From Deltaproteobacteria bacterium UBA2409 (GTDB taxonomy: Bacteria > Bdellovibrionota_C > UBA2361 > DDRT01): a stretch of 64,000 nucleotides of DNA. The notes under the pieces are model-generated. The model did no database searches, had not been told where the DNA came from, and worked only from the letters and a program-made list of their open reading frames with translations. Where the stretch lies: positions 400,215-464,214 of the forward strand of contig DDRT01000001.1 in assembly GCA_002343185.1 (NCBI GenBank), read 5' to 3'. Shown piece by piece: positions 11,851 through 56,769 of the stretch; within the stretch, counting starts at the first letter, position 1, and every line of letters starts with the position of its first letter. A program made the translations under genes and the position numbers.

Positions 11851-11882
11851 GTCTGGTCAGGCCTTCCGGCCTGACCCCCAAG
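11851..11882. repeat. Family-1 GC-rich palindromic unit (REP-like): GTCTGGTCAGGCC-TTCC-GGCCTGACCCCCAAG.
   Basis: Perfect hairpin GGTCAGGCC/GGCCTGACC. Same family as 25918, 30104, 35711, 41830 and 49657. It sits after the sbcC stop between convergent genes. Confidence 0.7.
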
Positions 11883-13989: not shown

Positions 13990-15894
13990 ATGCGTATGCA
14001 GCAGCGAGGGGCTGGCACACTTTTACTAATGGCGATCTTGGTTCCTGTTTTATTTTATGGAACCACGGTTGTGCTGTCGCTGTATAATATAAATGTTAGA
14101 AGGGGAGACTTACAAAGTACCCTAGAGCGAGCTCTGATGAAGGGAGCAAGATATCTTCCAGATTCAAGCGAGGCCGTTAGAGTTGCAAAAGAAGATCTTA
14201 GAAATAAATTTGGAGATTCATTACAAGTCATCGAAAAGAATAGATCTCCTTACACTATAGCCTTAGCAGTCCAGCAAACAACAAATAGAAAATTTGCAGT
14301 ACCTCTTTTTAAGACCGAAAGAGAGGTTAATTATAAAGAAGCAGCGCAAGCAAGAGTTACTGCTCAACCTAAAGATGTTTACATCTTCTTTGAGAACAGT
14401 AGCTATCTTGCTCCTCCGATTGAAAATGTTGGAACATCTAGTGCTTTCTATTGGGGGCAATCTGTAAAAAGAAATACGGAGAATGGGAAGTGGACTAGAA
14501 GGAATGATTTTGGTTACTTCGATACATTTATTGGCGTCACCTCTGCAAAACTTTTAGAGTATAACTCTAGAGGCAGATACGGATTCTCAACTGGTCAAAA
14601 CGGGCTACGCCAATTAATGTCAGTAATAACCCCTCACTGGCAATCAGCAGATCTATTTAAAGACCAGTCATTAAGAGCTGGCAGATTAAGAACAGTCTTA
14701 CGAACTAATAATGCGATCTCCCAAGCAGTTTTTACCCAATCTTGCTTTAACCCTATTCTTTCTTCGTTAAAAAAAGCATCGATTCACCTTTTAGATCATT
14801 TCTCAAGCTTTGAATTAAACCAGGTAGCAGTTGAAAGTGGACCAATATCTGGAGCTTCTCCTGGGCAGGATAGACTTGGAATACACGCCGATTCTGGTAA
14901 GCCCTTTACAATTCAAGAGATGACACAAGGTGGAGATCCTCAGCGAGTTGGGATAGCGAACCTAGAAAATAATAGAGGTGAGAAAATCGCTCATAACCGA
15001 AATGTTGAAGATAATCATAGGCTAAGAGTCAGAGATCAAGAATGTTGGGCTGCTCACGAGGTTGCTACAAGAAGGTGGACTCAGAATCAGACTCAGTCAT
15101 TTTTAGGTTCTGGAGAGATTGGGTCTACTATTTACGCAATTCCAAAACTCCCTAACTATTTCCGAAATACAGGTCTTGGAGGAGTTGGAACTAATATTTC
15201 AACGCCAATTCTTAGAGAAAGAAGATATGGAAGTAGACCAGTTAAATTTCATTATGAACTTGAAAGAGGGTCTATAAATAATCTTAAAACGAGGGAAGCT
15301 ATTTGGTCACGCAGTGTTGCTGAAGATTACAATAATGATACTAGAACCTCTCATGATACGATTAATTTTGAGCGTATTGTTAATAGGATTATTAATAAGC
15401 TTGTAGAAGCAAACCCTTCTGGTAATTTAGTAAGTCGAAGAAAGCTTGCAGGAAAGGCATTAGAAAAAAAAGCATTTATTCTTCTAGGCGACACTCCTCA
15501 CCTTAACATTGGCAACGGAAGACTTGATAATCTAAGGAGTGCCGGAACCAATAAAGACAGGTATTTCGAGGCTCTAAGAGAACAGCTAGTTAGATTAAGA
15601 GATTCAATGAGGGGAAGAAGCGGACGACTTAGTGTTTTAATTGTTATTCCAAGACATGAGGGAAGTTATTCTCAGGAGGTCTGTACTAACAACTGGACGT
15701 TCCCAGGAGAGCTTGTTTGTCAGGCATTTAGATCGGATATGGCTTTACTTCGAGATGAGATCTCTTCATGGACAAGAAACTGGAACAAGGTAGAAGTCAC
15801 AACAATTCCAGCAACTGATGTTGGAACGCTTGCTCTTGATTTGCTTTCATCATTAATCTCAAGTGGACAAAACTATGTATTATCGGATGTATAG
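13990..15894 (+). CDS. TadG-like (Flp-pilus-assembly / pseudopilin-like) large protein, 634 aa.
   Basis: The N-terminus has a short polar leader, then G-x-hydrophobic helix (RGAGTLLLMAILVPVLFYGTTVVLSLYN), typical of TadE/TadG-family proteins. It is followed by two TadE-like genes. Confidence 0.4.
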   Translation: MRMQQRGAGTLLLMAILVPVLFYGTTVVLSLYNINVRRGDLQSTLERALMKGARYLPDSSEAVRVAKEDLRNKFGDSLQVIEKNRSPYTIALAVQQTTNRKFAVPLFKTEREVNYKEAAQARVTAQPKDVYIFFENSSYLAPPIENVGTSSAFYWGQSVKRNTENGKWTRRNDFGYFDTFIGVTSAKLLEYNSRGRYGFSTGQNGLRQLMSVITPHWQSADLFKDQSLRAGRLRTVLRTNNAISQAVFTQSCFNPILSSLKKASIHLLDHFSSFELNQVAVESGPISGASPGQDRLGIHADSGKPFTIQEMTQGGDPQRVGIANLENNRGEKIAHNRNVEDNHRLRVRDQECWAAHEVATRRWTQNQTQSFLGSGEIGSTIYAIPKLPNYFRNTGLGGVGTNISTPILRERRYGSRPVKFHYELERGSINNLKTREAIWSRSVAEDYNNDTRTSHDTINFERIVNRIINKLVEANPSGNLVSRRKLAGKALEKKAFILLGDTPHLNIGNGRLDNLRSAGTNKDRYFEALREQLVRLRDSMRGRSGRLSVLIVIPRHEGSYSQEVCTNNWTFPGELVCQAFRSDMALLRDEISSWTRNWNKVEVTTIPATDVGTLALDLLSSLISSGQNYVLSDV

Positions 15895-25917: not shown

Positions 25918-25983
25918 TGGGGGTCAGGCCGGGAGGCCTGACCAGGCAACTGCTAGCTTAGGCCTCCCGGCCTGACCCCCAAG
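25918..25983. repeat. Family-1 palindromic element, inverted dimer: GGGGGTCAGGCCGGGAGGCCTGACCAGG … AGGCCTCCCGGCCTGACCCCCAAG.
   Basis: Two hairpin units in inverted orientation form a roughly 65-bp super-palindrome immediately after the 552-aa ORF stop. Confidence 0.75.
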
Positions 25984-30103: not shown

Positions 30104-30153
30104 CTTGGGGGTCAGGCCGGAAGGCCTGACCAGGCAAGGACTAGACTGGTCAG
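30104..30153. repeat. Family-1 palindromic element (one full unit plus a degenerate inverted partner).
   Basis: CTTGGGGGTCAGGCCGGAAGGCCTGACCAGG … CTGGTCAGGCTCCCCAAG. It lies between convergent genes. Confidence 0.7.
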
Positions 30154-35900: not shown

Positions 35901-36374
35901 CTAGTTATCTAGCTTTGACATTATTAGATCTGTAATATCCCCGTTCCCCTCACCAAAAAGTACAGGGCCTCTTGGCTGCTCACCTTTGTAAAGGACAAGA
36001 TCTATATCTTCTGATTTTGCATACGCCTCAATCTCTTTCATCGCTTTTTTTGTAAGCTCTTCGTTGAAGGCTGCAACCTGAGACTGGATAGAGTTTTCCG
36101 TTTCTTGAAAAAATTTACTCATTGCTCGTTGCTTCTCTTTAAAGGCTTTTATATCAGCTTCTTGTTTTGATTCACGCGCCTTCTTTTCTAGGGCAATTAA
36201 GGTAGCATTATCTTTCTCAAGCGAGGTTGTTGCAGCAGCAGATTTTTTATCAATCTCGGCACGCTTTACTTTCGCCTCTTTTGATTCATTTAAGATTCTA
36301 TTTATATCGACCGTAACAATCTTGTATTCGGCTAGTGAAAGGGTTGTTAACAGTAATAATGCAAGTATTCTCAT
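35901..36374 (-). CDS. skp: Skp/OmpH-like periplasmic chaperone.
   Basis: Signal peptide MRILALLLLTTLSLA, 157 aa, and a coiled-coil-rich K/E composition typical of OmpH. Confidence 0.55.
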   Translation of the reverse strand: MRILALLLLTTLSLAEYKIVTVDINRILNESKEAKVKRAEIDKKSAAATTSLEKDNATLIALEKKARESKQEADIKAFKEKQRAMSKFFQETENSIQSQVAAFNEELTKKAMKEIEAYAKSEDIDLVLYKGEQPRGPVLFGEGNGDITDLIMSKLDN

Positions 36375-36457
36375 ATGGCCATGGATTTTGTTCTATTTAA
36401 CAAGTTAGAGCAAGAGGAGGGGGGAGGAGTAAGGATTTGAGTAATATTCGGGGCACC

Positions 36458-36760
36458 TCACCCCTTTCTTGATTGAATAAGTTTATAGAGATGAGCTGCT
36501 AGTTTGTCTAATAGCTCAATAGTGTCTGTATTTGGATAGCTTAAGTCTAAAATAGCCTGACACTCTCTAAGAGAACCAAAAGCTATAGAGTAGAATCTTC
36601 TTTGATCAGGCCTTGTTTCTCTTCCTACCCCTTCAGCCAGATTAAGCACAATGCTAGAGGCAGCCCTTTTTAGCTGGTCAGCTAGATGTCTTGGAAGTGG
36701 CATAGCGGTTGCTTTTCGGTAAAACAAAACGGCGAGATTGTAAGTTCTAAAGTTTTTCAT
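36458..36760 (-). CDS. Four-helix-bundle protein ('23S rRNA intervening sequence protein' family; Avd-like).
   Basis: The 100-aa protein MKNFRTYNLAV…LNLAEG…FYSIAFGSLRECQ matches the conserved pattern of the TIGR02436/PF05635 family. Confidence 0.7.
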   Translation of the reverse strand: MKNFRTYNLAVLFYRKATAMPLPRHLADQLKRAASSIVLNLAEGVGRETRPDQRRFYSIAFGSLRECQAILDLSYPNTDTIELLDKLAAHLYKLIQSRKG

Positions 36761-36770
36761 AGTTTATAGA

Positions 36771-36821
36771 CTCCTTTTCAAAAAAAGTTCCTGCCCGGAT
36801 GAGAACTTTTTTTGAAAAGGA
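36771..36821. promoter_or_regulatory. Perfect 51-bp inverted repeat (20-bp arms, 11/12-nt loop) between the divergent four-helix-bundle genes. The outer arms are the two Shine-Dalgarno sequences.
   Basis: CTCCTTTTCAAAAAAAGTTC-ctgcccggatga-GAACTTTTTTTGAAAAGGAG. AAAAGGAG is 10-11 nt upstream of each start codon. Confidence 0.6.
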
Positions 36822-36833
36822 GATTCCTTGTTT

Positions 36834-37133
36834 ATGAAAAACTTTAGAACTTACAATTTATCCGTTTCATTCTACCGAAGTGCAACAGCAATGCCACTTC
36901 CAAGCCCTCTTAAAGACCAGCTTAAAAGGGCTGCTCTGTCAGTGCCATTAAATCTGGCAGAAGGTAGAGGGAGAAGAACCAGAGCTGATCAGATAAGATT
37001 CTTCAGTATAGCGTTTGGATCAGTCAGAGAGTGCCAGGCTCTATTTGACATAGCTGATCTCAAAGATACAGATACTTATAGACTATTAGATAGCCTTGCA
37101 GCATCACTATATAAGCTAATCAAGAAGGGGTGA
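36834..37133 (+). CDS. Four-helix-bundle protein (paralog of 36458-36760, same family).
   Basis: MKNFRTYNLSV…LNLAEGRGRRT…FFSIAFGSVRECQ is roughly 60% identical to the divergent neighbour. The start is taken at the second Met after the SD. Confidence 0.7.
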   Translation: MKNFRTYNLSVSFYRSATAMPLPSPLKDQLKRAALSVPLNLAEGRGRRTRADQIRFFSIAFGSVRECQALFDIADLKDTDTYRLLDSLAASLYKLIKKG

Positions 37134-37254
37134 GAATCCCCTTAGCTTTTCAGCTATCGGCTTTCAGCAAACGGCTCACGGCTTACGGAGATACGGAGAA
37201 CGGAGAGACAGATAACAGGGATAGACACACAAATAATTACGAATTTTAAACTAC

Positions 37255-38781
37255 CTAGCCCTCTTCCGGAATCCCACCTGGTAAATCAGGTAATTTTTGG
37301 TTTAAGAGTTCAACTACGGCACGAAAGACTCTTCGTGCTTCGAATGATACTGATCCGTTGTTGCCGCAATCTGCATATAAAGCAACTGGAGAATCATGGG
37401 CAGCTTCGATGGGAGAAACAGCAAAGCTCTTACTACCAAATGGGGAGTGAGCACTTTTCTTGCTTCCAAAACTTTGTACTTTGGTAAAACACTGAGCAAG
37501 TGGGGAGAGAGGATCAGTGATATCAAGTGATAACCCTTTTTCGACAACAGGGCCTCGTGCTGCAACAACTTTTGCAGTTCTTTTATCTGGGGAAACTACA
37601 ATCAGGGCAGATTTTTCAAATAAACCATCTTGAAGAAGTATAGATAAAAGAGAGCTTAAAAGTTCTTCACTAGACTGAACTGAGCTTAGTGAATCGAAAA
37701 GTGCTCCTACAATCTTATTACCTCTATTTCCTGGCATCTGTGGAGGTATCACCATCGAAGGTTTTGAAGAAGGTGGAGGCGCTGGTGGAAATTCAACCTC
37801 TGTAGTTACAACGGTAGTATCTGAGAGAAGTCCAAAAATCTCATCTTCAAGTGATGGAATAGATTGAGCTTCTATGGATCCCATTGATTGCTCTCTCAGT
37901 AAATCGGCTTTCTTTTTCTCTTCTATCATTCTTACCTGATAGAGGTATTCACTTGCTCTTTCGTAAACTTTTAAGTACTGGCCATCTGTCATTTGAAGTA
38001 GTCTTAAATGACTCTTTGAAGATAAAGTTTTTCCTGGAGCAAGCCTTTCCCATTTGTTATTATCAAAAGCATCAACCATTTCAGCCGCTGAGTTTACAAG
38101 TGGCTTCATAATTGCTCTTTCTGGAGCCCTGTTCATTGCTTCCCGATCTAGTGCAAAAAGAAGTGCCTCAGGTATTCCGTTTCTTCTAAGATATAATAAA
38201 CCCATTCTTTCAACATCAAATTTTGATTCTTGAGCCAGCCTGTAGTTAATCCCAGATCTACTAAGCTCTTCTGCTAATTCAACGTATTTTTCCTGAAAGA
38301 ATCCAACTGCAAGAAGTTCGCCCATTCCTACTAAGAGCCCAGCTGCCTGGCAGTCATCGCTAAGTTGCTTTGCTAGGGCTTCGGAAAGTATTCTTGATAC
38401 TATCGCTGTTCTTTTCATTCTGCTTCTATGTAGATTAACCCAGTGTTGAACCTCTTCGTTGTCAAATTGTGGACGATCCAAAAGACTCTCAAGGAGTTCC
38501 CTGACAACCTGAGAGCCAAGTCTAACTATAGCTGTTGTGGTAGATGTAATAGGAGGTCGTCCGCCAGAGAAATAAAGTGCGTTTGCCTGTTTAAGAAGTT
38601 CAATAACAAGAATAGGATCTTGAAGGCAACAAGTTGCTAAGTCTTCGACTCTCACTTTTGTGTCAGCGACTAGTTTTCTAGCCTCGGCCCAAATTAAACT
38701 GTCTGGAGGAAAATGTAGAGTAAGGGCACCTGATAGTCCTTTGACCCCTTCTGTCTGAACTTCGGATTCCTCGTCCTTCAT
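37255..38781 (-). CDS. HDOD-domain signalling protein (508 aa).
   Basis: The N-terminal ~250 aa resemble the HDOD (HD-related output) domain. The C-terminal half is unassigned. Confidence 0.5.
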   Translation of the reverse strand: MKDEESEVQTEGVKGLSGALTLHFPPDSLIWAEARKLVADTKVRVEDLATCCLQDPILVIELLKQANALYFSGGRPPITSTTTAIVRLGSQVVRELLESLLDRPQFDNEEVQHWVNLHRSRMKRTAIVSRILSEALAKQLSDDCQAAGLLVGMGELLAVGFFQEKYVELAEELSRSGINYRLAQESKFDVERMGLLYLRRNGIPEALLFALDREAMNRAPERAIMKPLVNSAAEMVDAFDNNKWERLAPGKTLSSKSHLRLLQMTDGQYLKVYERASEYLYQVRMIEEKKKADLLREQSMGSIEAQSIPSLEDEIFGLLSDTTVVTTEVEFPPAPPPSSKPSMVIPPQMPGNRGNKIVGALFDSLSSVQSSEELLSSLLSILLQDGLFEKSALIVVSPDKRTAKVVAARGPVVEKGLSLDITDPLSPLAQCFTKVQSFGSKKSAHSPFGSKSFAVSPIEAAHDSPVALYADCGNNGSVSFEARRVFRAVVELLNQKLPDLPGGIPEEG

Positions 38782-41829: not shown

Positions 41830-41934
41830 CGGGGGTCAGGCCGCCCTATTGTTGCTTCATCCGCTGGCGCGGATGATAGAACCCTGACCAGGCAAGCATT
41901 ACGTCTGGTCAGGCCTTCCGGCCTGACCCCCAAG
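41830..41934. repeat. Family-1 palindromic element, dimer with an extra internal hairpin (CATCCGCTGGCGCGGATG).
   Basis: GGGGGTCAGGCC…CCTGACCAGG … CTGGTCAGGCCTTCCGGCCTGACCCCCAAG. It overlaps the last ~9 codons of the convergent 376-aa ORF. Confidence 0.7.
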
Positions 41935-49657: not shown

Positions 49658-49756
49658 GTAAGCTGACTTGGGGGTCAGGCCGGGAGGCCTGACCAGACGT
49701 AGTGCTTGACTGGTCAGGCCTCCCGGCCTGACCCCCAAGTAGCCTGACCCCCAAAG
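49657..49756. repeat. Family-1 palindromic element, perfect inverted dimer plus an extra half-site.
   Basis: CTTGGGGGTCAGGCCGGGAGGCCTGACCAG-acgtagtgcttga-CTGGTCAGGCCTCCCGGCCTGACCCCCAAG-tag-CCTGACCCCCAAAG. It lies between convergent genes. Confidence 0.8.
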
Positions 49757-55020: not shown

Positions 55021-56769
55021 TCAAGTGCCAAGCCCATTCATTTTCAATAAATCCCTAACCCTCTTTTTAAGAGGTAAAGATTCTTTAAAAACTCTTATTT
55101 TGCCCCCAGTTTCATTAGATTCAAAAACAGTAATGATAACTTTTCTATGAGATGGCATAACATCTTTAAAAGTCACAAAGCTCTTATTTTTAAATGACTT
55201 TTTTTGGATAGCTAGTGTTCGGATTTTAATCTCAGCATGCAAACCCTTAGCTAAATGGTTCGATCTAACAATCTGAATTCTGCCTGCTCTCTTTAGACTG
55301 CTGAATTTTAATCTTACCTCGAATGGATCGGCATGGATGGTTGGAGTCGGAATAGGAGAATTGGTATATGTTGGTGAATTGGTGGGGGTCGGTGAGCTGG
55401 ATGGTGTTGGGGAGTTGGTGGGTGAAACCGAGGTCGGAGTATTAGTAGGAGTTGACGTAGAAGTTGCTGGAAGATTAGTAGGGGTTGCTGTTCTGGTATG
55501 GGTTGGCGTTCTAGTAGGAGTAGCCGTTGCTGGAAGAATTGTTGGAGTTGGGGTTGCTGTAGCTGGAAGAGTTGTTGGAGTTGGAGTCGCTGTTGGCGTC
55601 CCCTCGCTTACACTTGCAAGACAAGAGCTATAGTTGTTATCCGCTAAAAACGAATTCCATGCATTCAAGCTCGCAGTGCTATATTCTCGGTCATTTCCAG
55701 TTGCTCCTGGAGACATTACGTATTGAGTTGGCTCTGAGTCGTGTCCACCAGTGCTTGCATTATATGCACTTAGAGTGTGAAACATTTCATGTTCGATAAT
55801 ACTAGCATTTCCAGCAATCGTACTGTAGTAGGTTATACTTCCTCCGCTGTTTGAACCAGTTTCTTGAACATGGCATACCATGGACATCGAATTAAATGGT
55901 AACCAAGTCATTAGCGCATAACCGATTGGCCCACTGCTGTAGTTTCCAAGTATAATGTGATTCAGATCTGAGATAATATTATATGTTGAAATATAGGATT
56001 TAAGAGAATTTACATTGGCAGTTATGTCCGTTCCTCCTGTAAAAGGTGAAGTAGTCGGGTTGAATGTTATCGAAAGGACATTAATTGTTGCTCCCAATCT
56101 TGTACGAATTCGCGCATCAACATGATTGATATATTGAAGCAGTAAATTTTCTGAATCTTGTCCCCATCGTTGATGATATTCAGGGGTGGTAAAAAATCTC
56201 ATTTCAATCTCTCTTAGATCGCCCCCATTCATTGTAGAAAAACCAGGATTGATATGAACATGATTATAGTTAGGGAGGCTCTCTGGGGAGTCAGATACAG
56301 GAACGTTCAAGGGGTGAGAAATAACTTTAATTTTGTCGATATGATTTTTTTTACTCAGCTTTTTATTTTCTGCAAACTTGATCGTAATTTGGCATACTCT
56401 ACTTTTGTTGCACCCTTCGTAGCTTGTTGTAATCCTGTATCCTTTCTTGCGCTTCTCAATAGCAATCCCAACGGGATAGTATTTCTTTTCTCTCCCTATT
56501 CTCTTAATAACTAAACCTTGAGCTAGGGCGATGTTTTCAATCGAACGAATCGTCGAGAAACGATTTGCTTCTATTGTTATATTGCCTCTCCCAGAAAATC
56601 TTTTTAATTTTCTATTACGTCCTAGTACTTTCATCAAAAGGGAAGTTGAGTTTGCTGATACAGTGTTTGTCCGCTCAAGTTTGCTTTTTAGGTTGGGGCT
56701 GATTAGTACTATCGGATCAGCATGGGCAACTAGTGAAAACATTAGCAGCACTACAAAGACTTGCCTCAT
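55021..56769 (-). CDS. Secreted zinc metallopeptidase (HExxH) with a Thr/Pro-rich linker and a C-terminal domain.
   Basis: Signal peptide [17 protein letters not shown], zincin motif [10 protein letters not shown], roughly 90-aa linker ([20 protein letters not shown]…), and a C-terminal ~100-aa basic domain. Confidence 0.5.
55340..55615. repeat. Low-complexity tandem-like codon repeats encoding the Thr/Pro linker.
   Basis: Reiterated ACN-CCN codon units. The + strand antisense reads as a spurious Gly/Val ORF. Confidence 0.6.

What the first reader, a model, noticed from the sequence alone, without database searches (positions are those of the whole stretch)
36458..37133. Divergent pair of Avd-like four-helix-bundle paralogs sharing a perfect 20-bp-arm palindrome that contains both ribosome-binding sites
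Two ~100-aa '23S rRNA intervening sequence protein' family members are transcribed outward from a 73-bp spacer. Their sequences are MKNFRTYNL…LNLAEG…ECQ, and the family is, to my recollection, the one that includes the DGR accessory protein Avd. The spacer's central 51 bp is an exact inverted repeat: CTCCTTTTCAAAAAAAGTTC / GAACTTTTTTTGAAAAGGAG. The outer 8 nt of each arm are the AAAAGGAG Shine-Dalgarno of the respective gene. Any transcript reading through the spacer would fold to sequester its SD. This is an unusually symmetric regulatory design. These proteins have no established function in chromosomes lacking rRNA intervening sequences or DGRs. No reverse transcriptase is in the window.
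Basis: partly seen in the sequence, partly recalled or inferred. Interest (0 to 1): 0.5.

Follow-up and report, generated by a model that had tools for sequence, protein, structure and literature searches.

The report
Shared ribosome-site hairpin of inserted gene pair
The perfect palindrome between these two small genes is real and is the conserved leader hairpin of a multi-copy, insertion-polymorphic gene cassette that resembles the intervening sequences of ribosomal RNA genes, which gives a very large protein family of unknown function its first testable regulatory features.

Summary
Two PF05635/TIGR02436 four-helix-bundle genes (36458-36760 on the minus strand, 36834-37133 on the plus strand, 71% aa identity) diverge from a 73-bp spacer. 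The spacer holds a perfect 20+12+20 palindrome (52 bp, not 51) whose outer ends are both Shine-Dalgarno (SD) sites.

It is neither chance nor a one-off. In 80 related loci from Bdellovibrionota-type MAGs:
- 68 of 94 gene copies have a perfect inverted repeat of at least 12 nt upstream, against 2 of 302 control ORFs.
- At least 27 loci are the same head-to-head pair.
- Unpaired copies also carry the hairpin with the SD paired.
- Arm sequences differ between loci but stay perfect, even where the partner proteins are only 45-70% identical.

The pair lies in an insert of about 790 bp. A relative whose HDOD protein is 92% identical has HDOD directly next to OmpH.

The cassettes carry arrays of 6-8-nt repeats built on CNG triplets. 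Similar arrays flank family members in cyanobacteria and form the stem of a genuine Azospirillum 23S rRNA intervening sequence (IVS).

Best reading: an IVS-like selfish cassette, duplicated in inverted orientation around its leader hairpin. The hairpin occludes the SD in RNA and may be cut by RNase III. That mechanism is inferred. Transcription starts are unknown, and the absence of G-U pairs leaves a DNA-level role open.

The parts
36458..36760 (-). Gene A: 100-aa PF05635/TIGR02436 four-helix-bundle protein ('23S rRNA IVS protein' family), A-type partner of the pair.
   Evidence: Pfam E 1e-16 and NCBIfam TIGR02436. AF2 model has pLDDT 93 with four helices. Best solved-structure match is 2GSC. 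The closest relatives in other pairs are the same-side partners.
36834..37133 (+). Gene B: 99-aa paralogue, 71% identical to gene A, B-type partner. An alternative in-frame TTG start lies at 36828.
   Evidence: Its best relatives are L084_m (76%) and L083_m (71%), slightly above its own partner at 70%.
36761..36833 (.). 73-bp spacer between the two start codons.
36771..36790 (.). Left arm of the palindrome, CTCCTTTTCAAAAAAAGTTC. On the - strand its outer 8 nt read AAAAGGAG, the SD of gene A. On the + strand the arm is the anti-SD for gene B.
   Evidence: 100% complementary to 36803-36822.
36791..36802 (.). 12-nt loop, CTGCCCGGATGA (TCATCCGGGCAG on the - strand). It resembles the semi-conserved apical motif TCAYCCGGGTGM seen in other pairs.
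36803..36822 (.). Right arm, GAACTTTTTTTGAAAAGGAG. It contains the SD of gene B (36815-36822), 11 nt upstream of the ATG.
37127..37141 (+). Small GC hairpin, GGGG-tgagaat-CCCC, with the stop codon of gene B in its loop, followed by TTAGCTTTT. Terminator-like.
   Evidence: Flagged by the terminator scan. The same design is seen in L084 and L013.
36450..36464 (-). Equivalent GC hairpin, GGGG-cacctca-CCCC, with the stop codon of gene A (36458-36460) in its loop.
   Evidence: Read from the sequence. Inverted counterpart of 37125-37141 (pair I6).
37148..37225 (+). Array of about 10 short periodic units (7-8 nt, each built on a CNG triplet): tCAGctatCGGctttCAGcaaaCGGctcaCGGcttaCGGagataCGGagaaCGGagagaCAGataaCAGg. 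It is part of the insert.
   Evidence: TRF rows at 37148-37176 and 37184-37206. The CNG-chain score is 10 here; outside this array, windows elsewhere in the 64 kb reach at most 4. Such arrays flank family genes in 58 of 134 flanks against 5 of 1119 other segments. No array is present at the empty site.
36437..37225 (.). Approximate extent of the inserted cassette (array, gene B, palindrome, gene A, two stop-codon hairpins) between HDOD (37255-38781, -) and OmpH/Skp (35901-36374, -). Boundaries are good to about +/-15 nt on the OmpH side and about +/-30 nt on the HDOD side.
   Evidence: Relatives L089, L090 and L091 (HDOD 92% identical) have HDOD followed 110 nt later by OmpH with no PF05635 gene. 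L092 (65%) is also empty.

Best explanation
What it is (shown). The palindrome is the conserved leader hairpin of a small, multi-copy cassette that is present in some close relatives and absent in others. The cassette carries PF05635 ('23S rRNA IVS protein' / four-helix-bundle) genes in Bdellovibrionota-type bacteria. Its basic unit is: an array of short periodic repeats, a long near-perfect hairpin whose 3' arm holds the Shine-Dalgarno (SD) site, an ORF of about 100 codons, and a small GC hairpin with the stop codon in its loop. The window holds the head-to-head form, an inverted duplication of the gene pivoting on the hairpin. One symmetric stem therefore carries the SD of both genes. Here the cassette (about 790 bp) has been inserted between the co-oriented host genes HDOD and OmpH.

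How it most likely works (inferred).
1. The genes are reached by transcripts that start upstream of the 5' arm. For gene A, read-through from HDOD on the minus strand would do this.
2. Such a transcript folds into a stem of 20 bp or more that buries the SD, so translation stays off by default.
3. A stem of this length and perfection is the canonical substrate of RNase III, the enzyme shown to excise the rRNA intervening sequences that carry homologous ORFs. Cleavage would separate the anti-SD from the SD, either licensing translation or destroying the mRNA.
4. The perfection of the arms is probably maintained by selection for pairing on both strands in pairs, together with hairpin-templated correction of quasi-palindromes during replication.
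5. The same hairpin can plausibly prime fold-back synthesis, which would explain why so many copies are head-to-head pairs.
For: Recurrence:
- A perfect inverted repeat of at least 12 nt lies within 100 nt upstream of 68 of 94 distinct family copies, against 2 of 302 control ORFs. For at least 15 nt the counts are 58 of 94 against 0 of 302.
- 27 of 80 loci are clear divergent pairs with spacers of roughly 60-146 bp (shorter in two degraded pairs). A further 24 loci end at a contig break within 450 nt upstream, and 8 of these show the partner's start.

Not a by-product of duplication:
- Singletons have the hairpin too. The SD is paired in the minimum-free-energy fold in 25 of 27 singletons and 47 of 48 paired copies.

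Constraint on pairing:
- Arms differ between loci but stay complementary: 807 Watson-Crick pairs against 16 mismatches in pairs, and 363 against 11 in singletons.
- Related hairpins differ by mirrored changes, for example L003/L006, L020/L024, and the window against L083 and L084.
- Arms are perfect even where partner proteins are 45-60% identical, as in L055, L018 and L006.

Inverted-duplication origin:
- Same-side partners are each other's best matches across loci.
- Some pairs are young: L049 at 94%, L068 at 93% and L059 at 81% aa identity. In them the inverted DNA similarity runs 386-475 nt from the centre.

Insertion and multi-copy:
- Close relatives have an empty HDOD-OmpH site.
- Other pairs sit between unrelated housekeeping genes.
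- L013, L016 and L017 from one MAG share the whole pair plus about 100-nt flanks at 91-96% identity.

Link to IVS elements:
- Repeat arrays are specific to the cassette flanks.
- A real Azospirillum 23S rRNA IVS encodes a homologue enclosed by 36-nt arms built of 7/14-nt repeats.
- The Coxiella IVS has a 28-bp stem cut by RNase III and GACAGAT heptamers upstream of the homologous ORF (PMC4990558).
- Some Bdellovibrio-type copies are enclosed by inverted arrays of about 50-150 nt, for example L064 and L065.

Folding in the window: -28 kcal/mol, z about -5.5 on both strands. Median stem length is 22 bp in singletons and 26 bp in pairs.
Against: - No transcription start is known. The sigma-70 scan found nothing in the spacer and only one weak site inside gene B pointing towards gene A. 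If transcripts start in the loop, no SD hairpin forms.
- The stems contain almost no G-U pairs, even in singletons (1 G-T against 6 A-C mismatches). The sense strand folds no better than the antisense strand. This is not what selection on a single RNA strand usually leaves, and it fits a DNA-level structure or a mutational homogenising process equally well.
- RNase III involvement rests on analogy only.
- The exact borders of the insert, any target duplication and the means of mobility were not resolved. The insert encodes no recombinase.
- About a quarter of family copies lack a long perfect hairpin.
Confidence: 0.5

Rival explanations
1. The palindrome works as DNA. It would form a cruciform or single-strand hairpin used for copying, moving or duplicating the cassette (fold-back priming, or a structure-specific recombination site). 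The SD sites would lie inside it only because the palindrome fills the space next to the start codons.
For: - The stems are essentially perfect Watson-Crick, with no G-U tolerance and no sense/antisense folding asymmetry, even in singletons.
- In several pairs the palindrome runs right up to both ATG codons, and in L014 into them.
- The cassettes are multi-copy and present or absent among close relatives.
- Young pairs are giant palindromes centred on the loop.
- Assemblies often break at the palindrome.
Against: - No recombinase or nuclease travels with the cassette.
- Known hairpin-dependent systems (IS200/IS605 ends, attC, REP) use imperfect hairpins with extrahelical bases (my own knowledge).
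- The 3' arm always sits so that the SD is at the base of the stem, 0-26 nt from the start codon.
- The homologous rRNA IVS stems are shown to act as RNA (PMC4990558).
- A DNA role in duplication and an RNA role in expression do not exclude each other.
Confidence: 0.2
2. The palindrome is a bidirectional intrinsic terminator or insulator. It would stop host read-through from either side before it enters the cassette genes.
For: In the window and many pairs the arms read A-run, short stem, loop, short stem, T-run (CAAAAAAAGTTC...GAACTTTTTTTG). This is the look of a bidirectional terminator.
Against: - The terminator scan did not flag the window palindrome, because the inner stem has only two G-C pairs and the loop is 12 nt.
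- Many family hairpins have no T-run after the stem, or have the A-rich half on the 3' arm: L031, L038, L011, L032, L057.
- A terminator placed immediately upstream of both SD sites would leave both genes without a transcript unless promoters lie in the 10 nt that remain.
Confidence: 0.08
3. The palindrome is a symmetric operator, or a pair of overlapping divergent promoters, bound by a dimeric or ring-shaped regulator, possibly the four-helix-bundle protein itself.
For: - Divergent genes with a central dyad are the classic layout of autoregulated operators.
- The apical motif (about TCAYCCGGGTGM) is semi-conserved between loci whose arms differ.
Against: - Arms of 17-47 nt are far longer than operator half-sites.
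- Arm sequences differ between copies in the same genome, for example L011 against L045, and L032, L058 and L073. A common sequence-specific binder is therefore unlikely.
- Operator function does not require perfect complementarity over the whole arm.
- No promoter-like hexamers were found in the spacer.
Confidence: 0.07
4. The palindrome is a neutral leftover of a recent inverted duplication, with no function.
For: The two genes are an inverted duplication.
Against: - The flanking duplicated DNA is only 76% identical, and the 10-11 nt next to each arm are unrelated, yet the arms are perfect.
- The same holds in 27 pairs whose proteins are 45-70% identical.
- Singletons carry the hairpin.
Confidence: 0.03

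Closest known systems
23S rRNA intervening sequences (IVS) that carry an 'S23p'/PF05635 ORF: Coxiella burnetii, Leptospira, and the Azospirillum lipoferum example fetched here as L100
   Same: - Same protein family. The L100 ORF is 37% identical to gene A.
- A long, nearly perfect stem next to or around the ORF: 28 bp in Coxiella (PMC4990558) and 36-nt arms in L100.
- Tandem repeats of about 7 nt of the GAC(A/G)GA type beside the ORF. Coxiella has GACAGAT and L100 has CAGAGGACGGATGA x2. The window array contains ACGGAGA x3 and GACAGAT.
- The SD region is involved in the stem or its processing.
- Patchy, horizontally acquired distribution.
   Different: - The window element is not in an rRNA gene. 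There is no rRNA in the window; it sits between protein-coding genes.
- Its stem is a local hairpin 5' of the ORF rather than a pairing of the two ends of the element.
- It carries two diverged ORFs head to head.
- Each ORF has a good SD and its own terminator-like hairpin, so the protein is probably made. The Coxiella ORF is reported as probably untranslated.
SD-occluding leader hairpins, including leaders activated by RNase III cleavage (lambda N, T7 0.3, E. coli adhE; recalled from my own knowledge)
   Same: A stem pairs the SD with an upstream anti-SD. Stem length is in the range RNase III accepts (about 20 bp or more). The predicted stem is very stable.
   Different: - Known examples are imperfect, strand-specific RNA structures in front of one gene.
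- Here the stem is a perfect DNA palindrome that serves two genes on opposite strands and shows no G-U pairs.
- Processing has not been tested.
Avd, the accessory protein of diversity-generating retroelements
   Same: Four-helix bundle of about 100-130 aa. The literature treats PF05635 as Avd-like (PMC10053308). Avd and DGR ribonucleoprotein chains appear in the fold search.
   Different: - The similarity is only weak (Foldseek E 0.5, TM 0.66, 11-14% identity).
- No reverse-transcriptase-like ORF was found in the window by a crude YxDD scan.
- No relatives were found in viral contigs and there is no PADLOC hit.
Palindrome formation at short inverted repeats, and templated correction of quasi-palindromes (Ripley model; recalled from my own knowledge)
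   Same: Head-to-head duplications centred exactly on a hairpin loop. Young pairs are almost entirely palindromic. Arms are kept perfect without G-T intermediates.
   Different: Those are general mutational mechanisms. They explain the form of the structure but not why the hairpin is retained in front of this gene family.
Cyanobacterial short tandemly repeated heptamers (STRR; recalled from my own knowledge)
   Same: Tandem heptamers in intergenic DNA. Here they were seen directly flanking PF05635 genes in Nostoc, Pseudanabaena, Picosynechococcus and Aulosira plasmids.
   Different: As far as I could find, STRR have not been described as linked to this gene family. The unit sequences also differ.

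Membership tests
PF05635 / TIGR02436 four-helix-bundle ('23S rRNA IVS protein', 'S23p') family | Profile match above the curated cut-off | tested here: met
   Pfam gives 61.5 and 61.3 bits against a cut-off of 33.8. TIGR02436 gives 60.4 and 63.3 bits against a cut-off of 24.
PF05635 / TIGR02436 four-helix-bundle family | Four-helix-bundle fold resembling XCC0516 (2GSC) and BT_0352 (2RLD) | tested here: met
   The AF2 model has pLDDT 93 with helices at 2-19, 24-46, 50-74 and 79-97. Foldseek top hits are 2GSC (E 3e-4, TM 0.76-0.80) and 2RLD. Sequence profile against 2GSC gives E 3.5e-10.
PF05635 / TIGR02436 four-helix-bundle family | Pentameric toroid assembly | not testable with these tools
   Reported for XCC0516 (PMC4990558, citing Lin et al. 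2006). No multimer prediction was available here.
DGR accessory protein Avd | Encoded next to a DGR reverse transcriptase with template and variable repeats | tested here: not met
   The neighbours are OmpH, acetyl-CoA synthetase, RpiA, HPPK, HDOD and fumarase. No YxDD-containing long ORF was found in the 64-kb window, by a crude scan. No relatives were found in viral contigs.
DGR accessory protein Avd | Close structural similarity to Avd (4DWL) | tested here: inconclusive
   4DWL and 8UB7 chains appear at E 0.5-1.5 with TM 0.6-0.68. These scores are no better than those of unrelated helical bundles.
23S rRNA intervening sequence (IVS) element | Inserted in helix 25 or 45 of a 23S rRNA gene | tested here: not met
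   No Rfam family reaches its threshold anywhere in the window. The element lies between HDOD and OmpH.
23S rRNA intervening sequence (IVS) element | Carries a PF05635 ORF | tested here: met
   A genuine IVS comparator, L100, lies within LSU rRNA (1016 bits) and encodes a homologue.
23S rRNA intervening sequence (IVS) element | Complementary termini that form a long stem enclosing the ORF | tested here: not met
   In the window the long stem is a local 5' hairpin shared by two ORFs, and the outer flanks are not complementary. Enclosing stems do occur in some relatives: L064, L065, L025, L048 and L072.
23S rRNA intervening sequence (IVS) element | Excision or cleavage of the stem by RNase III | not testable with these tools
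   Shown for Coxiella (PMC4990558). Only stem length (20 bp in the window; family median 22-26 bp) can be compared.
SD-sequestering leader hairpin (translational control) | The SD is base-paired in the predicted leader structure, and the structure is more stable than shuffled controls | tested here: met
   Window: -28.0 and -27.6 kcal/mol, z -5.7 and -5.4. Family: SD paired in 72 of 75 copies where an SD was found.
SD-sequestering leader hairpin (translational control) | Pairing is preserved through sequence change | tested here: met
   Arms differ between loci but remain complementary. An RNAalifold test failed for lack of an alignable set.
SD-sequestering leader hairpin (translational control) | The mRNA contains both arms | not testable with these tools
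   No transcription-start data exist. The promoter scan was uninformative. Read-through from HDOD would include both arms for gene A; this is inferred from gene order.
SD-sequestering leader hairpin (translational control) | Strand-specific RNA signature (G-U tolerance, sense strand folding better than antisense) | tested here: not met
   1 G-T against 6 A-C mismatches in singletons. No sense-strand advantage in folding energy.
Bidirectional intrinsic terminator | GC-rich stem with a short loop followed by a U-run | tested here: not met
   The scan did not flag it. The inner stem is GTTC/GAAC with a 12-nt loop. The feature is not conserved across the family.
Mobile element (non-autonomous cassette or MITE-like) | Presence/absence polymorphism at an orthologous site, and multiple copies per genome | tested here: met
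   The site is empty in L089-L091 (HDOD 92% identical) and in L092. Several loci come from a single MAG, and near-identical copies L013, L016 and L017 exist.
Mobile element (non-autonomous cassette or MITE-like) | Defined terminal inverted repeats, target-site duplication and a cognate transposase | tested here: inconclusive
   The borders could not be placed to the base because the intergenic DNA has diverged. Flank arrays are inverted in some loci (L011, L030, L064) and direct in others (L084, L013). There is no enzyme gene in the insert.

The most novel reading that the evidence does not exclude
PF05635 genes across phyla may be the cargo of one unrecognised class of selfish cassettes, which could be called 'free-living IVS elements'. 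The class would be defined by three things: a toroidal four-helix-bundle protein, arrays of about 7-nt repeats that the protein ring binds (in the manner of TRAP or HutP binding spaced triplets), and a long RNase III-type stem that gates expression. The rRNA intervening sequences would be the special case of such a cassette landing in rRNA. In Bdellovibrionota the stem would also act as the pivot for fold-back duplication, producing hetero-paralogous pairs whose overlapping divergent leaders could make expression of the two partners mutually exclusive.
Probability: 0.2. Interest if true: 0.8.

Novelty: new variant of a known kind. Interest (0 to 1): 0.6.

Why it matters
PF05635/TIGR02436 is a very large family. 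The profile built here finds 12,761 cluster representatives (clusters at 50% identity) at E up to 0.001. Its only functionally understood relative is Avd of the diversity-generating retroelements. The non-DGR members have been a puzzle since rRNA intervening sequences were described.

This work shows that the genes travel with conserved cis-elements:
- a perfect hairpin that contains the SD;
- repeat arrays of about 7 nt;
- hairpins with the stop codon in their loop.

The cassettes are gained and lost between close relatives. The same repeat-plus-stem grammar appears in a genuine 23S IVS and around cyanobacterial copies, including copies wedged into CRISPR operons.

These findings turn "function unknown" into concrete experiments: does the protein bind the arrays, is the stem cut by RNase III, and does the hairpin drive duplication? 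They also explain a practical nuisance, namely contig breaks in Bdellovibrionota MAGs.

Tried and rejected
- **Consensus RNA structure.** MAFFT plus RNAalifold on 19 hairpins gave no consensus structure, because arm lengths and sequences are too different to align. I used per-locus palindrome and mismatch counts instead.
- **Compensatory changes, all against all.** A comparison of arms across all loci to count compensatory changes was too permissive because the arms are low-complexity A/T runs. Only the clearly related pairs are cited.
- **Promoters.** The sigma-70 scan found nothing in the spacer. A search for a -10-like element on the antisense strand of the partner's first codons showed a difference between pairs and singletons: TANNNT at +20 in 26 of 56 pairs against 5 of 33 singletons. 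This is confounded by AGA/CGN codon choice and lineage, so it was dropped.
- **Strand-specific RNA signature.** Neither G-U enrichment nor a sense/antisense energy difference was found. The T-rich loop orientation in singletons can be explained by common descent.
- **'Local hairpin or enclosing stem, one or the other'.** Enclosing stems occur in 7 of 18 copies with a weak hairpin against 2 of 14 with a strong one. By my own estimate this is not significant, so it is not claimed.
- **Multiples of five in array length**, as might fit a pentameric binder: no such pattern.
- **Known RNA families.** Only sub-threshold hits to plant microRNA precursor models, which are generic long hairpins.
- **Defence-system models** (PADLOC): none. 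**Phage or viral relatives:** none.
- **Base composition.** The insert does not differ from its surroundings.
- **Exact insert borders and target duplication.** Not resolvable from the diverged intergenic DNA.
- **Literature.** Nothing was found that links PF05635 genes to leader palindromes or heptamer arrays outside the Coxiella IVS.
Full report
**1. The observation**

Gene A (36458-36760, minus strand, 100 aa) and gene B (36834-37133, plus strand, 99 aa) both match Pfam PF05635 (E 1e-16) and NCBIfam TIGR02436, 'four helix bundle protein'. They are 71% identical. No other copy lies in the window (tblastn).

The 73-bp spacer (36761-36833) contains perfectly complementary 20-nt arms at 36771-36790 and 36803-36822, around a 12-nt loop. 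The palindrome is therefore 52 bp, not 51. The outer 8 nt of each arm read AAAAGGAG on the coding strand of the adjacent gene, 10-11 nt from its ATG.

This is the only 100%-complementary short-loop inverted repeat of at least 14 nt in the 64 kb. As RNA, either strand folds at about -28 kcal/mol (z -5.7 and -5.4) with the SD in the stem. Leaders that lack the 5' arm show no structure.

The two genes are an inverted duplication that is only about 76% identical in DNA. The 10-11 nt between each arm and its ATG are unrelated. The perfection is therefore confined to the arms.

The pair is on record in independent JGI, ENA and NCBI assemblies. One ENA contig (L002) differs by one extra T in the right-arm T-run.

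**2. The protein**

An AlphaFold model built on 25 relatives is confident (pLDDT 93) and has four helices. The best solved matches are XCC0516 (2GSC) and BT_0352 (2RLD, 'S23 ribosomal protein family'). Avd (4DWL) and the DGR ribonucleoprotein chains appear only at E about 0.5 and TM about 0.66.

The literature treats PF05635 as Avd-like (PMC10053308). For these genes the relation is remote:
- no reverse-transcriptase-like ORF in the window (crude scan);
- no PADLOC hit;
- no relative in viral contigs.

The family is large: 12,761 cluster representatives at E up to 0.001.

**3. The palindrome belongs to the family, not to this locus**

The closest relatives are all from Bdellovibrionota/Oligoflexia-type MAGs. 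In 80 loci from the genome collection:
- 27 show the same head-to-head pair.
- A further 24 are cut by a contig end within 450 nt upstream. Several of these end inside the palindrome itself, and 8 show the partner's first codons.
- Pair spacers are mostly 60-116 bp (extremes 31 and 146 bp). Nearly all carry a long perfect palindrome with arms of 17-47 nt, in several cases filling the whole spacer up to both ATG codons.

Counted over all distinct copies, a perfect inverted repeat of at least 12 nt lies within 100 nt upstream of 68 of 94 family genes, against 2 of 302 other ORFs in the same loci. For at least 15 nt the counts are 58 of 94 against 0 of 302.

Single, unpaired genes carry the same structure: CTCC... 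5' arm, loop...GGAG 3' arm, then the start codon. In minimum-free-energy folds the SD is paired to an upstream partner in 25 of 27 singletons and 47 of 48 paired copies. The anti-SD arm is therefore not just the other gene's SD seen from behind.

**4. Constraint on pairing**

Arm sequences vary widely between loci, even within one genome, yet stay complementary. Pairs have 807 Watson-Crick positions against 16 mismatches. Singletons have 363 against 11.

Related hairpins differ by changes mirrored in both arms: L003/L006, L020/L024, L031/L038, and the window against L083 and L084.

The arms are perfect even where the two partner proteins are only 45-60% identical, as in L055, L018 and L006.

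Two expected signs of selection on a single RNA strand are absent:
- There is no excess of G-T over A-C mismatches (1 against 6 in singletons).
- The sense strand folds no better than the antisense strand.

For pairs this is expected, because a G-U pair on one strand is an A-C mismatch on the other. For singletons it needs another explanation. Options are templated correction of quasi-palindromes during replication (a known mutational process, from my own knowledge) or a DNA-level role.

**5. Origin of the pair**

Across loci the same-side partners are each other's best matches, for example A with L083_p and L084_p, and B with L084_m and L083_m. Most pairs therefore descend from an old A/B pair and spread as a unit.

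Some pairs are young. L049 partners are 94% identical, L068 93% and L059 81%. In them the inverted DNA similarity runs 386-475 nt from the loop, beyond the genes.

This is the pattern expected if a hairpin-bearing single unit is duplicated by fold-back synthesis at its hairpin. That mechanism is inferred.

**6. The pair is an insert**

The host genes on either side, HDOD (37255-38781) and OmpH/Skp (35901-36374), are co-oriented on the minus strand. The state of this site in relatives is:

| Relative (locus) | HDOD identity to window | State of the HDOD-OmpH site |
|---|---|---|
| L089, L090, L091 | 92% | Empty: HDOD followed 110 nt later by OmpH |
| L092 | 64% | Empty: 81-nt gap |
| L088 | 90% | Contig ends 44 nt after HDOD, inside a repeat array |
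| L093, L094 | 95% | Different sequence after HDOD |
| L095 | 65% | Unrelated 226-aa ORF |

Alignment places the OmpH-side border near 36437 and the HDOD-side border near 37225. The diverged intergenic DNA prevents base-level resolution.

Other pairs sit between rpsI and a pyr operon (L083) and between a T2SS-F gene and a pilin-like gene (L084, from the same metagenome as the window). Three loci of one MAG share the whole pair plus about 100-nt flanks at 91-96% identity.

**7. Companion elements**

Each gene ends in a small GC hairpin with its stop codon in the loop: 37127-37141 for gene B and 36450-36464 for gene A.

Beside gene B lies an array of about ten 7-8-nt units built on CNG triplets (37148-37225; TRF). 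A simple chain score is 10 here; outside this array, windows elsewhere in the window reach at most 4. It reaches 7 or more in 58 of 134 cassette flanks, against 5 of 1119 other segments of the same loci. There are 71 arrays of 6-38 units, with 7 nt the commonest spacing. The empty site has no array, so the array came with the insert.

**8. Link to rRNA intervening sequences**

Coxiella (PMC4990558):
- The IVS carries a homologous ORF.
- It has a 28-bp terminal stem that is cut by RNase III.
- It has tandem GACAGAT heptamers between the SD and the ATG.
- Its SD is removed by the cleavage.

Azospirillum:
- A tblastn search of plasmids turned up an unannotated homologue inside a 23S rRNA gene (LSU rRNA, 1016 bits).
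- It is enclosed by 36-nt arms, 86% complementary, built of CAGAGGACGGATGA repeats.
- The window array contains ACGGAGA three times and GACAGAT once.

Cyanobacterial plasmids:
- Family genes are flanked by heptamer arrays: CTAAAAG x16 and CCAAAAG x9 in Pseudanabaena, and GTCAGGA repeats in Nostoc and Aulosira with the complement downstream.
- Two copies are wedged into CRISPR operons, between cas10 and cmr3 and between cas6 and cas4.

Other relatives fetched here: some Bdellovibrio-type copies are enclosed by inverted arrays of about 50-150 nt, the IVS layout but outside rRNA (L064, L065, L025, L048, L072).

The common theme is a PF05635 ORF next to, or inside, a long RNA-duplex-forming structure, together with repeats of about 7 nt.

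**9. Mechanism**

Shown:
- the anatomy of the cassette;
- its recurrence;
- the constraint on pairing;
- the insertion polymorphism;
- the predicted occlusion of the SD.

Inferred:
- Transcripts include both arms. For gene A, read-through from HDOD would.
- The stem keeps translation off.
- RNase III, by analogy with IVS elements, cleaves the stem to release or destroy the message.
- Fold-back at the hairpin makes pairs.

Rivals considered:
- A DNA-level role, supported by the perfect Watson-Crick arms.
- A bidirectional terminator. A-run/T-run arms occur in this and many loci, but not across the family, and the scan did not flag it.
- An operator. The arms are too long and too variable.
- Neutral remnant. 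Excluded.

**10. Comparison and novelty**

SD-occluding hairpins and IVS elements with S23p ORFs are both known. I did not find the following described:
- a family-wide perfect leader palindrome shared by head-to-head paralogues;
- the cassette's insertion polymorphism in protein-coding intergenic regions;
- the cross-phylum association of PF05635 genes with heptamer-type arrays.

I class it as a new variant of a known kind, of moderate to high interest.

Noticed in passing
window 11855-11876, 25922-25977, 30110-30131, 41907-41928, 49673-49733: A GC-rich, REP-like palindromic element, GGTCAGGCC-GGGA-GGCCTGACC, occurs 7 times (5 sites, two of them as inverted doublets) in a genome of 39.5% GC. 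None is expected by chance. It is unrelated to the PF05635 palindrome.
   Followed up: partly
L096 1093-1449 (Picosynechococcus plasmid); L098 1201-1560 (Pseudanabaena plasmid): Four-helix-bundle genes are inserted, co-oriented, inside CRISPR-Cas operons, between cas10 and cmr3 and between cas6 and cas4. They are flanked by heptamer arrays or short complementary repeats.
   Followed up: partly
L100 612-1080 (Azospirillum lipoferum 4B plasmid AZO_p2, NC_016586.1, about 14336-14804): An unannotated PF05635 ORF lies inside a 23S rRNA gene. It is a genuine intervening sequence with 36-nt arms made of 14-nt repeats.
   Followed up: yes
HDOD-OmpH intergenic site: window 36375-37254; L088, L093/L094, L095: This intergenic site is variable among close relatives. 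It is empty in L089-L092. L088 starts a differently sequenced repeat array 3 nt after the HDOD stop codon. L093 and L094 have other sequence there. L095 has an unrelated 226-aa ORF.
   Followed up: partly
L011 2650-2790: A gene-less remnant of a cassette (repeat array, leader, partial hairpin, inverted array) sits directly upstream of an intact unit. This suggests deletion of the ORF or a MITE-like derivative.
   Followed up: no
L002 (ENA contig k141_61507), spacer: A contig encoding an identical gene A has T8 instead of T7 in the right arm. That would put a 1-nt bulge in the stem. It could be strain variation or a homopolymer sequencing error.
   Followed up: no
protein cluster of gene A (P0016, P0242-P0245): Five 63-aa versions 100% identical to part of gene A are on record from long contigs (up to 695 kb). 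They could be alternative gene calls or truncated alleles in other assemblies of the same organism.
   Followed up: no
window 55476-55593: Tandem repeats of period 18 and 33 nt (TRF scores 64 and 113). They are probably inside a coding region.
   Followed up: no
L084 3375-3564 and 4333-4375 (same metagenome as the window): A second PF05635 pair is flanked on both sides by the same 8/15-nt repeat (gctgtgaa / gccgtgagctgtgaa), in direct orientation, with 26 units on one side. Recombination between such direct arrays could excise or move the cassette.
   Followed up: partly
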